Positions 36,001-42,000 of a stretch of 64,000 nucleotides of DNA are shown here, piece after piece (the first letter of the stretch is position 1; each line of letters opens with the position of its first letter). Made by a program: the position numbers. The DNA lies in NCBI RefSeq assembly GCF_053078305.1, contig NZ_CP166879.1, one strand, 5' to 3'.

Positions 36001-39000
36001 GTAAGGAGAAAACCCTGGCACTTGGTGTGTATCCGGAAGTTTCTCTCTCCGAAGCTCGTACAAAACGGGATGAGGCCCGAAAACTGATTTCGGAGGGGGT
36101 TGACCCTTGCGAACAAAAAAGAGCTAAAAAAGTAGTCCCTGATTTACAACTCTCTTTTGAACATATTGCACGACGCTGGCATGCCAGTAATAAACAATGG
36201 GCACAATCACACAGCGATAAAGTACTCAAGAGCCTCGAGACACACGTTTTCCCCTTTATCGGCAACCGGGATATCACAACACTCAGTACCCCGGACCTGC
36301 TTATCCCTGTTCGTGCCGCAGAAGCTAAACAAATTTATGAAATCGCCAGTCGTCTGCAGCAAAGAATATCTGCTGTAATGCGTTATGCCGTACAGTCTGG
36401 CATCATCAGATATAATCCTGCTCTGGATATGGCTGGCGCATTGACCACTGTAAAACGCCAGCATCGCCCCGCTCTTGATCTTTCTCGCCTGCCTGAACTT
36501 TTGTCGCGTATTAGCAGTTACAAGGGGCAACCTGTCACCCAGCTTGCCGTTATGCTGAATTTACTGGTTTTTATTCGTTCCAGTGAACTCAGATACGCCC
36601 GGTGGTCTGAAATTGATATTGACAATGCCATGTGGACTATTCCAGCCGAACGCGAACCTCTGCCCGGCGTAAAATTCTCACACCGGGGCTCCAAGATGCG
36701 AACACCACATCTTGTGCCACTCAGCAAACAGGCTGTAGCCATACTGACAGAACTTCAGACATGGGCTGGTGAAAATGGTCTGATATTTACGGGTGCACAT
36801 GACCCGCGTAAACCAATCAGTGAAAATACTGTAAATAAGGCCCTGAGGGTGATGGGGTATGACACAACCCAGGAAGTCTGTGGCCATGGATTCCGGGCGA
36901 TGGCGTGCAGTGCATTGATTGAATCAGGTTTGTGGTCCCGCGATGCTGTGGAACGTCAGATGAGCCATCAGGAGCGTAATGGTGTACGTGCTGCGTATAT
37001 CCATAAAGCAGAACATCTGGAAGAACGGCGACTGATGTTGCAATGGTGGGCCGATTTTCTGGATGCGAACCGGGAGAAGGGTATCAGTCCGTTTGAATAT
37101 GCAAAGATTAACAATCCATTAAAATAGTAAGCAGTCCGGGCAATCAGCCCGGACTGCTTTAACTAATTATTTTTCTTTGAAATGATGACGAAGATTGATG
37201 TTTCTGACAAGTTACTCCGGCTTCCATTAAAGTCCCTTCGTCACGTTCTTCAGGCTATTTATGACTGTGATTAGCACCAGGAATATATGGTTTCCATGAG
37301 AGCAGGTAATAACCCCCGGTGTTTTCGGCTGCTCTGGTATCCCCGTCCAACACAGGCAGTTATTATAAACGGTAAAAAATGTATTCACTGTTATGAAATC
37401 AACAGTCCTGACGTACTGTTTAATGAGCTTGTGTTCTGAACCTCGTACAACCAGTTCATTTGATATCGAATTATAAACAAAACATTGCATCCAACTTTTT
37501 CAATATGGACAATAGCTGTCCATACGGTGATTTTATATTCGATAAATCAATGGATTTCATTGAGTCACAGGACTGGTAATGGATAAAAATGCTTTAGGGT
37601 TTGCCTCATACTGGCGCAACTCGCTTGCGGATGCTGAGTCAGGAAAGGGCAGTTTTAAACGGAAAGACGCCCAAAATTTCACTCACTGGCATGGGATAGC
37701 GGCGGGACGTCTTGACGAAGCGATTGTCAGTAAATTTTTTGAGGGAGAAAAAGACGATGTCGAAACGGTCGATGTCATCTTGCGCCCAAAAGTTTATTTC
37801 CGGTTACTGCAGCATGGTAAGGACCGTTCTGCAGGTGCGCCTGATATTGTTACCCCGATAGTGACGCCAGCCTTGCTAAGCCGTGAGGGTTTTTTATATC
37901 CGACGCCAGCGACCTCCATTCCCAGAGACCTGCTTGAACCTTTGCCAAAAGGAGCATTTTCGATTGGTGAGATTGGGCAGTATGACAAATACAAGACGAC
38001 CCATACCACGTTCTCTATCAACTTTGATGACAGCGTTGATAAGACTGCCGAAACGGATGAAGAACGGGAAGCACGATATGCCGCCTTGCAGCAGGAGTGG
38101 CGTCAATATCTGTATGACTCAGAGAGGCTACTGAAGAGCGTTGCCGGCGACTGGATTGAAAAACCTGAGCAATATGAACTCGCTGAGCACGGTTATATTG
38201 TTAAAACGGCTCAATCTGGCGGTGCCAGTTTCCATATCCTTTCTCTTTATGATCACCTGCTTGTTTGCAATAAGGATGTGCCGCTCTTCAATCGCTTCGC
38301 CTCGCGAGAGGTTCATGCTGCAGAGTCTTTGCTGGCCCCTGGAGCAAAATTCAGCGACAGGCTTGGACACTCCGGAGATAAGTTTCCGCTGGCAAAGGCT
38401 CAGCGCGATGCCTTAAGCCATTTTCTGGATGCAAGACATGGCGATATCCTTGCTGTTAATGGACCTCCGGGAACCGGAAAAACCACGCTGGTGCTTTCTA
38501 TCATCGCCACGCAGTGGGCCAGAGCGGCTCTCGAAAAATCTGAGCCTCCGGTTATTATCGCGACTTCAACGAACAACCAGGCTGTAACGAACATTATCGA
38601 AGCGTTCGGGAAAGATTTTTCACAGGGCACTGGTGCAATGGCCGGACGATGGTTACCTGAGCTGAAAAGCTTCGGCGCTTATTTTCCCTCAAGCACTCGT
38701 AAAGCTGAGGCAGCCAAAAAATATCAAACTGAAGATTTCTTCAACCAGGTTGAGTCAAAAGAGTATGTAGAGGATGCACTGCTGTTTTATCTGGAGAAGG
38801 CTAAGGCAGCCTTTCCTGAAAAAGATTGTTCATCCCCTGAAAAGGTCATTGAACTCCTGCATGGTCAGTTGGCAGCAAAATCCGAGCAACTGATAAGACT
38901 GAACGCAACATGGCAAACGTTAAGCCAGGTACGGGCTGCGCGTGAGCTTATTGCTAATGATATTGAGCAATATCTCGATAATTTAAATAAATTACTTTCC

Positions 39001-42000
39001 GGACAAGAACAAAAAGTCACTCTACTGAAGAGTGCTAAAACGGAATGGAAAAAATATCGCGCCGGTGAATCACTGATCTATTCATTATTTTCCTGGCTCC
39101 CGGCGGTTCGCAATAAGCGACAGTACCAAATACAGCTGTTTCTCGAAGATAAATTAGGCGCGCTGATTGCAGGAAATCAGTGGTCTGATCCTGAAACTAT
39201 CGAACGTAATATTGATGGGCTGCTCAATTCCGCTGAGCGCGAGCAAACAACATACCGGCAGCAGATTGACTCCGCCCATGAAATCATTCTTAAAGAACAG
39301 CAGGCGGTTCAGGAGTGGCAGAGACTGGCTCTTGATTTAGGGTATGAGGGCGACGAGGAACTGAGCTTCTCACAGGCCGATGAACTGGCTGATACGCAGA
39401 TTCGCTTCCCTGCATTTTTACTGACGACTCACTACTGGGAAGGTCGTTGGCTGATGGATATGGCCAGCATTGATGATCTGCAGGAAGAGAAGAAGAAAAA
39501 AGGCACTAAAGGGGTAACCGCCCGTTGGCAACGTCGAATGAAACTCACTCCATGTGTGGTGATGACATGCTATATGCTGCCCGGCAATATGCAGATAAGT
39601 GAGCACAAAGGACAGCGTAAATTCGAGAAAAGTTATTTGTATGATTTTGCCGATTTACTCATTGTCGATGAAGCCGGGCAGGTGCTTCCTGAAGTGGCTG
39701 CTGCCTCGTTTGCATTAGCTAAGAAGGCATTAGTGATTGGCGATACGGAGCAGCTCCCGCCAATATGGAGTATTGCTCCTGCGATTGATGTCGGTAACAT
39801 GCTGGCGGAAAAAATTCTGTCTGGCAGTACGCAAGAAGAGATTACCGAGAAATATACGGCAATCGCAGACCTTGGTAAAAGTGCCGCATCTGGCAGCGTT
39901 ATGAAAATAGCGCAGTTTGCTTCACGCTATCAATATGATCCCGAACTGGCTCGTGGTATGTACCTATATGAACACCGCCGGTGCTACGACAATATTATTG
40001 GATACTGTAATACGCTCTGCTATCACGGTAAGTTGTTGCCTAAAAGAGGGCCTGAAGAGAGCAATTTAATGCCCGAAATGGGGTATCTCCATATTGATGG
40101 TAAAGGAGAGCAGGCAAGTAGTGGAAGTAGATATAATTTGCTTGAGGCTGAAACGATAGCGGCCTGGTTGGCAGAGAACCAGCAAAATATTGAAGCGCAT
40201 TACGGCAAATCGCTTCATGAAGTTGTCGGTATCGTGACGCCTTTTAGCGCGCAGGTATCCACTATAAAACAGGCGCTGGGTAAACAAGGTATCAGTACGG
40301 GCGCGAATGAAAAGTCGCTCACAGTGGGCACCGTGTACTCTCTTCAGGGAGCGGAAAGAGCGATTGTGATATTCTCGCCAGTCTATTCAAAACATGAAGA
40401 CGGCGGGTTTATTGATAGCGATAACAGCATGCTGAATGTTGCAGTCTCCCGTGCGAAGGATAGCTTCCTGGTCTTCGGCGATATGGATCTGTTTGAGATC
40501 CAGCCTCCCTCATCTCCGCGAGGATTGCTGGCAAAATATCTCTTTGAGTCCGAGAAGAATGCGCTCTCTTTTGATTATAAAGAGCGTAAGGATTTAAAAA
40601 CTTCCGGGACCAAAATCTACACACTTCATGGTGTGGAGCAGCATGATAACTTCCTGAATCAGACGTTTGAAAATACCGATAAACACATCACGATAGTTTC
40701 TCCATGGCTGACCTGGCAAAAGCTGGAGCAAACGGGTTTTCTTGATTCCATGATTGCGGCGTGTTCACGTGGAATTAACGTCACGATAGTCACTGACAGA
40801 AGCTACAACACTGAACATAATGATTTTGAGAAGCGAAAAGAGAAGCAGCAGAACTTTAAAGCGGCGCTGGAGAAACTGAATGCGCTGGGTATTGCTACAA
40901 AGCTGGTAAACCGTGTTCATAGCAAAATTGTTATTAGTGATGATGGTTTGCTGTGCGTGGGATCGTTCAACTGGTTTAGTGCGACACGGGAAGCGCGATA
41001 TGAACGATACGATACCTCAATGGTTTATTGCGGTGATAACCTGAAGGGTGAGATTGAGGCTATTTATAATAGTCTTGAGAGGCGTCAGGTTTAGAGCAGG
41101 AATGGTGAGTAGCCATCTTATTGATCGTTTTCGAGCGTAAGATGGCTGAATGGAATGGCTATTATTGCACAGTCCTTAATTATAACATTCATACCGACAT
41201 GATTATCTTCTGTCCGGAAGAATCAGAGGCTGCGGTTTCAGACTGTCTGCTGGTACATTCCTTTCTCCGTTAAAAACCATAACGGGTTCATTATCTTCGT
41301 CTGTCAGCGGATTGAATGGCGGTATATTTTCAGTACGAATGCCGGTCAGCCACTGAAAAATACCTGCGAAATGACGGGCACTGATTTTCCTGCTGACGGA
41401 CTGATGAGACGTGATGTCACTGGCGGTAATAATCAGGGGAACGCTGTAGCCTCCTTGTATATGGCCATCATGATGAACAGGATTGGCACTATCGCTGACC
41501 GACAGCCCATGGTCAGAAAAGTAAAGCATGGCAAAATGACGGGAATGCCGGCGAAGGATACCATCAAGCTGACCGAGAAAGTTATCCAGTTTACTGATGC
41601 TGGCGAGGTAACAGGCAATCTTTCGGGGATACTGCTCCAGGTAATGATTCGGCCAGGAGTTAAGTAGGTCACACGGATTCGGATGAGAGCCAATCATGTG
41701 CAGGAAAATCACCTTCGGAGAGGATTTATCCGCCAGCGCACGTTCTGTTTCCTGTAACAACAACATGTCATCCGTTTTACGGGAAGCGAAGCTGCCTTTC
41801 TTGAGGAAAACGGTATGCTCCGCATCAGAAGCAATAACAGAGATGCGTGTGTCATGCTCTCCCAGTTTTCCCTGATTGGATATCCACCATGTGCTGTATC
41901 CTGCTTTTGCTGCCAGCGCCACCACGTTGTTGCCGGAATCAGGGTTCTGCTCATAGTCATAAATCAGTGTCCGGCTCAGGGAAGGTACGGTACTGGCTGC

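What the first reader, a model, noticed from the sequence alone, without database searches (positions are those of the whole stretch)
37579..41094. Integrase-proximal 1171-aa helicase-PLD nuclease fusion: single-gene defence candidate (Mokosh type II-like)
The first gene after the P4-type integrase encodes a complete SF1 Upf1/DNA2-like helicase core (Walker [13 protein letters not shown] box, [19 protein letters not shown] motifs) fused to one C-terminal PLD HKD motif ([10 protein letters not shown]...GSFNW), behind a ~280-aa N-terminal region with no motif I can place. Helicase plus PLD nuclease is the domain logic of Mokosh, where type II is a single fused protein as I recall it. The integrase-adjacent position in a tRNA-associated island is typical for defence cargo. 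If the N-terminal domain or domain order differs from described MkoC proteins, this could be a distinct variant.
Basis: partly seen in the sequence, partly recalled or inferred. Interest (0 to 1): 0.8.

Follow-up and report, generated by a model that had tools for sequence, protein, structure and literature searches.

The report
Known Mokosh type II defence gene

Summary
It matches the PADLOC MkoC (Mokosh type II) profile end to end (E = 0, 1687 bits, residues 1-1169 on profile 1-1135/1136). It has the same length (1171 aa) as the MkoC that Millman et al. cloned from E. coli 5-366-08_S1_C1 (construct SG150) and marked as verified. Over the 399 residues of SG150 that I could read, the two are 96% identical with no gaps. 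About 150 nt upstream of the start codon is conserved as well.

The gene is common. It occurs in 888 of 5426 complete E. coli genomes at 90-99% nucleotide identity, always on the chromosome.

They have no Pfam match and no relative among solved structures.

Published work on the E. coli protein reports a 132-kDa monomer. It cuts only single-stranded DNA, nicks plasmid, and protects only against the ssDNA phage SECphi17.

Two corrections to the context. There is no tRNA gene in the window, only a 50-nt tRNA-Phe 3' remnant left by an SPI-7-type ICE upstream. The neighbouring cargo is virulence and metabolic genes, not defence genes.

Verdict: already known, low interest.

The parts
35618..35667 (+). 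3' 50 nt of tRNA-Phe. It is an attachment-site remnant left between the upstream SPI-7-type ICE and the integrase. It is not a functional tRNA gene.
   Evidence: Alignment to K-12 pheV: last 42 nt exact, 2 mismatches in the anticodon, 5' 26 nt unrelated. ARAGORN finds none. Rfam tRNA scores 17.6 bits against a gathering score of 29.
35865..37127 (+). P4-type tyrosine integrase of the island that carries mkoC.
   Evidence: Pfam Arm-DNA-bind_3, Phage_int_M and Phage_integrase. NCBIfam PRK09692 integrase domain. It is 68% identical to the leuX-island integrase of E. coli 317, but the last ~60 residues are nearly identical, so the gene is mosaic.
37129..37159 (.). G+C-rich 13-bp-stem hairpin directly after the integrase stop codon. 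It is a likely terminator separating int from mkoC.
   Evidence: Consensus scan only.
37430..37578 (+). Upstream region conserved with the cloned, active SG150 construct. It presumably holds the native promoter and includes the inverted repeat TATGGACA-ATAGC-TGTCCATA at 37504-37524.
   Evidence: In the alignment with the first 400 nt of the SG150 insert, the last ~150 nt before the ATG are nearly identical and the sequence further upstream is unrelated. The inverted repeat comes from the scan. No promoter was mapped.
37579..41094 (+). mkoC, the Mokosh type II single-protein system: 1171 aa, 131.6 kDa, monocistronic.
   Evidence: PADLOC MkoC PDLC03924: E = 0, 1687 bits, full length. 96% identical to verified SG150 over 399 aa. 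99% identical to WP_032186784.1. The downstream gene is convergent.
37579..38313 (+). N-terminal alpha/beta domain (aa 1-245), specific to the MkoC family, function unknown. I infer a regulatory or sensor role.
38395..39903 (+). RecA-like domain 1 of the Upf1-like SF1B helicase (aa 273-393 and 657-775), interrupted by an all-helical insertion (aa 394-656, nt 38758-39546). Walker A GPPGTGKT is at nt 38461-38484. Walker B DEAG is at nt 39667-39678.
   Evidence: Pfam AAA_11 in two pieces. AF2 secondary structure. Walker A and B are invariant or nearly so in 45 diverse homologues.
39904..40503 (+). RecA-like domain 2 of the helicase (aa 776-975), with the QGAER and VSRAKD motifs.
   Evidence: Pfam AAA_12, E 8e-22. 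PDB sequence hits to senataxin, IGHMBP2, DNA2 and UPF1. Foldseek hits to the same families, E 1e-17 to 1e-10.
40612..41091 (+). C-terminal PLD-superfamily nuclease domain (aa 1012-1171) with one HKD motif, HSKIVISD-x6-GSFN (aa 1114-1131, nt 40918-40971).
   Evidence: Pfam PLDc_2 and PLDc. PADLOC MkoB and DrmC partial hits. Among homologues with a residue at the position, H1114 is kept in 39 of 42, K1116 in 41 of 42 and D1121 in 42 of 42.

Best explanation
The gene is mkoC, the single-protein Mokosh type II anti-phage system, in an intact allele about 96% identical to the E. coli protein that has been tested.

Anatomy: a family-specific N-terminal domain, then an Upf1-like SF1B helicase whose first RecA domain carries a ~260-residue helical insertion, then one PLD (HKD) nuclease domain.

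Shown in the literature for the E. coli protein:
- It protects E. coli from phage (Millman et al. list the SG150 construct as verified).
- Across the Mokosh systems tested, mutations in the helicase ATP-binding site or in the PLD active site abolished defence.
- The purified protein is a 132-kDa monomer that cleaves only single-stranded DNA (M13 and SECphi17 genomes) and nicks plasmid. It does not cut any of the double-stranded DNA targets tested.
- In the panel tested it defended only against the ssDNA microvirus SECphi17.

Inferred mechanism: the helicase loads on exposed single-stranded nucleic acid from the invader and translocates 5'->3' using ATP, as other Upf1-like enzymes do. The PLD domain then cuts the strand. 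Duplex chromosomal DNA is spared because it is not a substrate. PLD nucleases such as Nuc and Zucchini build their active site from two HKD motifs. This protein has only one and is monomeric at rest, so cutting probably needs two molecules to meet on the substrate. The N-terminal domain and the helical insertion probably regulate this or sense the trigger.
For: - PADLOC MkoC profile, E = 0, covering the whole protein.
- Pfam AAA_11, AAA_12 and PLDc_2.
- Same length as the verified construct SG150 and 384 of 399 identical residues with no gaps. The upstream ~150 nt are conserved.
- Calculated mass of 131.6 kDa matches the 132 kDa given for EcMokosh II.
- Catalytic residues are intact here and conserved in 45 homologues of 30-51% identity.
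- The AF2 model is confident (pLDDT 90.7, pTM 0.85). Its helicase core matches senataxin, UPF1, IGHMBP2, Aquarius and DNA2.
- It is an accessory gene in 888 of 5426 E. coli genomes and sits in integrase-bounded islands.
- Literature: the requirement for both active sites among the tested Mokosh systems; the monomer, ssDNA-only cleavage and SECphi17-only defence.
- Two figure legends of the 2025 preprint say EcMokosh II cleaves only at 1 uM. That fits a need for two molecules to meet.
Against: - Nothing was tested on this allele. It differs from SG150 at 15 of the first 399 residues, 14 of them in the N-terminal domain. I could not read the rest of SG150.
- Expression is unproven, because the scan found no strong sigma-70 consensus just upstream.
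- The dimer-on-substrate step is my inference. The running text of the 2025 preprint says activity was robust at all concentrations, which contradicts its own legends.
- RNA substrates were not in that paper's panel, and Millman et al. proposed RNA or RNA/DNA hybrids as the target, so the physiological substrate is not settled.
- A 2026 review still calls Mokosh incompletely characterised.
Confidence: 0.93

Rival explanations
1. It is the same protein, but the substrate that matters in the cell is RNA: phage transcripts or RNA/DNA hybrids. On this view it acts as a prokaryotic counterpart of the MOV10L1 helicase plus Zucchini/PLD6 nuclease pair of the piRNA pathway, rather than on ssDNA.
For: The helicase core is closest to RNA helicases: senataxin bound to ssRNA, UPF1, IGHMBP2 and Aquarius. 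[quoted passage not shown] Cury et al. reported structural similarity of an E. coli fused Mokosh protein to MOV10L1 (TM 0.74) and PLD6 (TM 0.63). RNA was not in the 2025 substrate panel.
Against: The purified E. coli protein does cleave ssDNA, and the only phage restricted in that panel has an ssDNA genome. Upf1-like helicases such as DNA2 and IGHMBP2 also act on DNA (established knowledge).
Confidence: 0.2
2. Its main targets are single-stranded intermediates of other mobile elements rather than lytic phages: conjugating plasmids or ICEs, rolling-circle replicons and filamentous phages. It would then be a tool of competition between mobile elements.
For: In vitro it cuts M13 ssDNA and nicks plasmid. 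It rides on integrase-bounded islands and here lies directly beside an SPI-7-type ICE. It protects against very few lytic phages.
Against: No conjugation or plasmid-exclusion data exist in the papers I read. The island and the ICE coexist in several genomes, which does not suggest strong exclusion. The phage phenotype is demonstrated.
Confidence: 0.12
3. It is a housekeeping DNA repair or replication helicase-nuclease of the Dna2 or AddAB type, with no role in defence.
For: There are weak sequence and fold matches to DNA2 and RecD.
Against: It is present in only 16% of complete E. coli genomes, and in the two relatives I inspected it lies in an integrase-bounded island. It is often broken: by IS600 in OkiPb01692 and as the K-12 yjhR remnant. 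It has a PLD nuclease, not the PD-(D/E)XK nuclease of Dna2. The near-identical protein protects against phage.
Confidence: 0.01

Closest known systems
MkoC of Mokosh type II, E. coli 5-366-08_S1_C1 (construct SG150, IMG gene 2586378093; Millman et al. 2022), also called EcMokosh II in the 2025 nuclease-NTPase preprint
   Same: Same length (1171 aa) and same domain order. 96% identity over the 399 residues available, with no gaps. Conserved upstream region. Same calculated mass.
   Different: There are 15 substitutions in the first 399 residues, 14 of them within the N-terminal domain. The insertion site is also different: here it sits behind a tRNA-Phe remnant and an integrase only 68% identical to the leuX-island integrase of a 99%-identical copy.
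Mokosh type I (MkoA + MkoB), e.g. E. coli ETEC H10407
   Same: Upf1-like helicase plus PLD nuclease logic. There are partial PADLOC hits to MkoA (E 8e-37, helicase part) and MkoB (E 3e-17, PLD part).
   Different: Type I is two genes, and MkoA carries a Ser/Thr kinase domain. Here there is one gene, no kinase domain in Pfam, and a different N-terminal domain.
E. coli K-12 yjhR (b4308, pseudogene)
   Same: It aligns to residues 834-1171 (end of the helicase plus the PLD domain) at 66% identity.
   Different: yjhR is only a 338-codon C-terminal remnant of a diverged copy. It lacks the N-domain and Walker A/B, so it cannot be a working system.
Eukaryotic Upf1-like SF1B helicases (UPF1, senataxin/Sen1, IGHMBP2, MOV10L1) and PLD nucleases (Zucchini/PLD6, Nuc)
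   Same: Same helicase fold and motifs. Same HxK(x)4D(x)6GSxN nuclease motif. Cury et al. proposed a link to the piRNA pathway.
   Different: In MkoC the helicase and nuclease are fused in one bacterial protein. It has its own N-terminal domain and a ~260-residue helical insertion in RecA1. It is reported as a monomer, whereas Nuc and Zucchini are dimers (dimer state from established knowledge).

Membership tests
Mokosh type II (MkoC) | Full-length match to the family profile (PADLOC MkoC, PDLC03924) | tested here: met
   E = 0, 1687 bits. Protein residues 1-1169 align to profile positions 1-1135 of 1136.
Mokosh type II (MkoC) | One polypeptide with the COG1112/Upf1-like helicase N-terminal to a PLD nuclease domain | tested here: met
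   AAA_11 (272-489 and 679-729), AAA_12 (777-969) and PLDc_2 (1028-1138). This is the published order for type II.
Mokosh type II (MkoC) | Stand-alone gene: no separate MkoA or MkoB partner and no kinase domain | tested here: met
   The upstream gene is an integrase. The downstream gene is a convergent phosphoethanolamine transferase. Neither has a PADLOC hit. No kinase family appears in Pfam.
Mokosh type II (MkoC) | Intact ATP-binding site and PLD active site, the sites whose mutation abolished defence in the tested Mokosh systems | tested here: met
   GPPGTGKT at 295, DEAG at 697, and H1114/K1116/D1121 with GSFN at 1128. These are conserved in 45 homologues. The requirement is reported.
Mokosh type II (MkoC) | Protects cells against phage | not testable with these tools
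   Shown for the allele that is 96% identical over 399 aa (SG150 marked verified; defence only against SECphi17 in the 2025 panel). Not shown for this allele.
Mokosh type I (MkoA/MkoB) | Two genes, with a Ser/Thr kinase domain on the helicase protein | tested here: not met
   There is a single gene, no kinase domain, and only partial hits to the MkoA and MkoB profiles.
Upf1-like SF1B helicases | SF1 motifs I, II, III, V and VI, and a two-RecA fold closest to Upf1, Sen1 and IGHMBP2 | tested here: met
   Motifs located. PDB sequence hits. Foldseek top hits are senataxin, UPF1, IGHMBP2 and Aquarius at E 1e-17 to 1e-14. Unwinding polarity was not tested.
PLD-superfamily (HKD) nucleases such as Nuc, Zucchini and BfiI | HxK(x)4D(x)6GSxN motif | tested here: met
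   [18 protein letters not shown] at 1114-1131. Pfam PLDc, E 3e-5.
PLD-superfamily (HKD) nucleases such as Nuc, Zucchini and BfiI | Active site assembled from two HKD motifs, by a dimer or an internal duplication | not testable with these tools
   Only one HKD motif is present. EcMokosh II is reported as a monomer in solution. Whether it pairs on substrate is unknown.
Dna2-type housekeeping nuclease-helicase | PD-(D/E)XK nuclease domain with an Fe-S cluster, and core-genome distribution | tested here: not met
   No such domain appears in Pfam. The gene is present in only 888 of 5426 E. coli genomes.

The most novel reading that the evidence does not exclude
The N-terminal ~245-residue domain has no detectable relative among solved structures and occurs only in MkoC-type proteins. 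It is also among the more polymorphic parts of the protein across enterobacterial alleles. It could be a new kind of sensor or autoinhibitory module that sets which invader is recognised. If so, alleles such as this one (14 N-domain substitutions against the tested protein) would have a different target range, possibly including conjugative or rolling-circle ssDNA rather than only microviruses.
Probability: 0.15. Interest if true: 0.45.

Novelty: already known. Interest (0 to 1): 0.1.

Why it matters
It matters little as a discovery. The gene family, its name, its defence phenotype and a first biochemical description are all published, and this copy is a common E. coli allele.

Its practical value is for annotation. 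RefSeq calls this gene 'AAA domain-containing protein' in all 25 E. coli records listed, so the window shows a validated defence gene hiding under a generic name. It sits at the head of a virulence island that also carries the EspI protease and the Iha adhesin/receptor.

Open questions for the field remain: what the N-terminal domain does, how a monomer with a single HKD motif forms an active site, and whether the real substrate is ssDNA or RNA. These are questions about Mokosh in general, not about this locus.

Tried and rejected
- **Distinct variant of MkoC:** rejected. The profile covers the whole protein. The N-domain was found only at the N-terminus of 1114-1282-aa proteins or in short sequences, probably fragments. 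In A3, the alignment of the full-length ones, the helicase and PLD motifs are conserved.
- **Solved Mokosh structure:** none found by sequence or by fold.
- **Intact tRNA gene at the island border:** rejected.
- **Second copy of the tRNA-Phe repeat, to mark the far end of the island:** none in 35500-64000.
- **Other defence systems beside mkoC:** none. The integrase, the phosphoethanolamine transferase and the EspI autotransporter have no PADLOC hits. The hits inside the upstream ICE look incidental: a DpdF-profile match on the ORF that corresponds to the gene annotated topoisomerase III in L002, a mad8-like hit, and a weak PDC-S02 hit.
- **The search for homologous proteins for a diverse alignment:** the top 120 hits were all at least 89% identical E. 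coli-type copies, so it was useless for modelling. The 50%-clustered library gave the diverse set instead.
- **Full-length SG150 sequence:** the supplement is truncated at ~400 residues. No cluster representative matched its prefix exactly. The closest, P0019, has 7 differences in 399 and is 97% identical to the window protein over 1171 aa.
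Full report
**Observation.** The window has an ATG-initiated ORF at 37579..41094 on the + strand, encoding 1171 residues. Pfam finds AAA_11 in two pieces (272-489 and 679-729), AAA_12 (777-969), PLDc_2 (1028-1138) and the PLDc active-site motif (1110-1133). It finds nothing in residues 1-270. The gene upstream (35865..37127, +) is a P4-type tyrosine integrase with Arm-DNA-bind_3, Phage_int_M and Phage_integrase domains.

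**Identity.** Against PADLOC-DB the protein matches the MkoC model (PDLC03924) with E = 0 and 1687 bits. Residues 1-1169 align to profile positions 1-1135 of 1136. The next best hits are partial ones to MkoA (helicase part) and MkoB (PLD part). [quoted passage not shown]

Their supplementary table lists construct SG150, 'Mokosh type II', marked 'v' (verified). It comes from Escherichia coli 5-366-08_S1_C1, IMG gene 2586378093, and is 1171 aa long. The 399 residues printed there are 96% identical to the window protein (384 of 399, no gaps). The last ~150 nt before the start codon of the cloned insert are nearly identical to the window. The closest cluster representative to SG150 that I hold (P0019) is 97% identical to the window protein over all 1171 residues. 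The calculated mass, 131.6 kDa, equals the 132 kDa quoted for 'EcMokosh II' in a 2025 preprint. The window gene is therefore an allele of the experimentally tested protein.

**Distribution.** The gene is in 888 of 5426 complete E. coli genomes at 90-99% nucleotide identity (879 of them at 95-99%). It is always chromosomal, and all 25 records listed annotate it as 'AAA domain-containing protein'. The protein database holds thousands of near-identical copies from E. coli, Shigella, Citrobacter, Salmonella and Enterobacter. Wu et al. counted 975 Mokosh II instances in their E. coli set; 882 of them co-occurred with type IV restriction, and the two systems were non-randomly co-localised.

The gene is often damaged. 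It is split by IS600 in the otherwise near-identical locus of strain OkiPb01692. The K-12 pseudogene yjhR is a 338-codon C-terminal remnant of a 66%-identical copy.

**Anatomy.** I collected 44 full-length homologues of 30-51% identity from the 50%-clustered library. Walker A, Walker B, GD..Q..P, QGAER, VAVSRA and the PLD residues K1116, D1121 and G1128-S-x-N-W are invariant or nearly so. H1114 is present in 39 of the 42 sequences that have a residue there.

AlphaFold2 on this alignment gave a confident model (pLDDT 90.7, pTM 0.85). It shows:
- an alpha/beta N-terminal domain (about residues 1-245);
- RecA domain 1 (273-393 and 657-775), interrupted by an all-helical insertion (394-656);
- RecA domain 2 (776-975);
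- a PLD domain (1012-1171).

Foldseek against the PDB places the helicase with senataxin/Sen1, UPF1, IGHMBP2, Aquarius, DNA2, ZNFX1 and coronavirus nsp13 (E 1e-17 to 1e-10). Sequence search gives the same families. This is the Upf1-like SF1B group. No Mokosh structure has been deposited.

**The N-terminal domain.**
- It is not a variant feature. The MkoC profile covers it.
- A search of 1.84 billion cluster representatives with residues 1-280 found 279 clusters. Every hit of 1114-1282 aa carries it at its N-terminus, and most of the rest are short sequences, probably fragments.
- Modelled alone it is confident (pLDDT 89.9, pTM 0.81).
- Pfam, PHROGs and a profile search of PDB sequences find nothing.
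- All top-50 AFDB50 hits are helicase/PLD-annotated MkoC-type proteins, their fragments, or uncharacterised proteins.
- Among 37 enterobacterial alleles, the N-domain and the helical insertion have the most variable sites of the folded domains (30% and 29%, against 12-19% in the RecA and PLD domains). This is a mild signal that I did not test further.

**Mechanism: what is shown.** Three Mokosh systems protected E. coli, and mutations in the helicase ATP-binding site or in the PLD active site abolished defence. The SG150 type II construct is marked verified. Purified EcMokosh II is monomeric by mass photometry. It cleaved only ssDNA targets (M13 and SECphi17), reduced plasmid mobility in a way consistent with nicking, and cut none of the dsDNA targets tested. 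In an 11-phage panel it defended only against the ssDNA phage SECphi17.

**Mechanism: what I infer.**
- The helicase loads on exposed single strands and moves 5'->3', as Upf1-like enzymes do (established knowledge of the family).
- Duplex host DNA is spared because it is not a substrate.
- The protein has one HKD motif, whereas Nuc-type PLD nucleases form their active site from two (established knowledge). Two molecules therefore probably have to meet on the substrate.

On the last point the preprint is inconsistent. Two legends say cleavage occurs only at 1 uM, while the running text says activity was robust at all concentrations. RNA was not in the substrate panel, so the original RNA hypothesis and the MOV10L1/PLD6 analogy remain open. 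A 2026 review still lists Mokosh as incompletely characterised.

There is no tRNA gene in the window. At 35618-35667 lies the 3' 50 nt of tRNA-Phe. The last 42 nt are exact to K-12 pheV, there are two mismatches in the anticodon, and the 5' half is missing. Rfam scores it at 17.6 bits against a threshold of 29.

Everything upstream (window 1 to about 35600, G+C 50-60%) corresponds to an SPI-7/PFGI-1-type integrative conjugative element. The near-identical strain OkiPb01692 annotates it so: dnaB-PI, ParB, ParA, topoisomerase III, pilL2 and STY4528-family genes. The likely history is that the integrase-mkoC island sat at tRNA-Phe and the ICE later inserted into the same tRNA, which left the displaced 3' end as the remnant.

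A 99%-identical mkoC in strain 317 sits at tRNA-Leu behind an integrase that is only 68% identical overall. The last ~60 residues of the two integrases are nearly identical, so the mkoC cargo has been recombined behind integrases of different site specificity.

Downstream the cargo is not defence. It comprises a convergent phosphoethanolamine transferase, the EspI serine-protease autotransporter, an AraC/YdeO-like regulator, Iha, a BtuB-type receptor behind a cobalamin riboswitch, and pocR-pduF-pduB-pduC. The three neighbours of mkoC that I tested have no PADLOC hit. mkoC is monocistronic, with a hairpin after the integrase upstream and a convergent gene downstream.

**Verdict.** It is an already known, experimentally tested, common E. 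coli defence gene. No feature of domain content, order or length sets this copy apart. The residual open questions are general to Mokosh. They are the role of the fold-orphan N-domain, how a monomer with a single HKD motif assembles an active site, and whether the substrate is ssDNA or RNA. This locus does not make them more tractable than the published construct does. Interest is low.

Noticed in passing
window 1-35600: The whole upstream half of the window corresponds to an SPI-7/PFGI-1-type integrative conjugative element (ParA, ParB, dnaB-PI, topoisomerase III, Ssb, pilL2, STY4528-family genes). Its G+C is 50-60% against ~45% for the mkoC island. It is inserted in tandem at the same tRNA-Phe site.
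   Followed up: partly
window 35618-35667: A tRNA-Phe 3' remnant of 50 nt. Identity to pheV stops inside the anticodon (TG changed to CT) and the 5' half is missing. The intact tRNA must lie beyond the window start, at the far end of the ICE.
   Followed up: yes
window 35865-37127 vs L001:10287-11549: The integrase is mosaic. It is 68% identical overall to the leuX-island integrase of E. coli 317, but its last ~60 residues are nearly identical and the downstream mkoC is 99% identical. This suggests a recombination junction inside int that moves the same cargo between tRNA-Leu and tRNA-Phe sites.
   Followed up: partly
window 37504-37524: A perfect 8-bp inverted repeat (TATGGACA ATAGC TGTCCATA) about 55 nt upstream of the mkoC start. 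It is partly conserved in the cloned SG150 insert. It could be an operator or part of the promoter.
   Followed up: no
L002:24765-29650 (E. coli OkiPb01692): In the closest relative of this locus, mkoC is split by IS600 copies into an 'AAA domain' pseudogene and a 'phospholipase D-like' pseudogene. The K-12 pseudogene yjhR is a 338-codon C-terminal remnant of a 66%-identical copy. The system is frequently lost.
   Followed up: yes
window 20508-20673 (-): A STAXI RNA motif (Rfam RF01728, 76 bits) lies inside the ICE. In the near-identical L002 the neighbouring genes are Ssb and topoisomerase III, the gene context the motif is named after.
   Followed up: no
window 55288-55481 (-) and 57531-57705 (-): There are two cobalamin riboswitches. 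One precedes a BtuB-type receptor whose ORF (53378..55468) overlaps the riboswitch, so the true start is probably further downstream. The other precedes a small cob-like gene next to pocR-pduF-pduB-pduC, i.e. propanediol and B12 genes on the same island as EspI and Iha.
   Followed up: no
window 37579-38313 and 38758-39546 (aa 1-245 and 394-656): Among 37 enterobacterial MkoC alleles, the N-terminal domain and the helical insertion have about twice the fraction of variable sites (30% and 29%) of the RecA and PLD cores (12-19%). No dN/dS test was done.
   Followed up: partly
window 41203-42702 (-): A phosphoethanolamine transferase of the EptA/CptA/MCR superfamily is convergent with mkoC. All its NCBIfam matches are far below their cut-offs (best 107 bits against 404). 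The same gene pair travels together in strains 317 and OkiPb01692.
   Followed up: no
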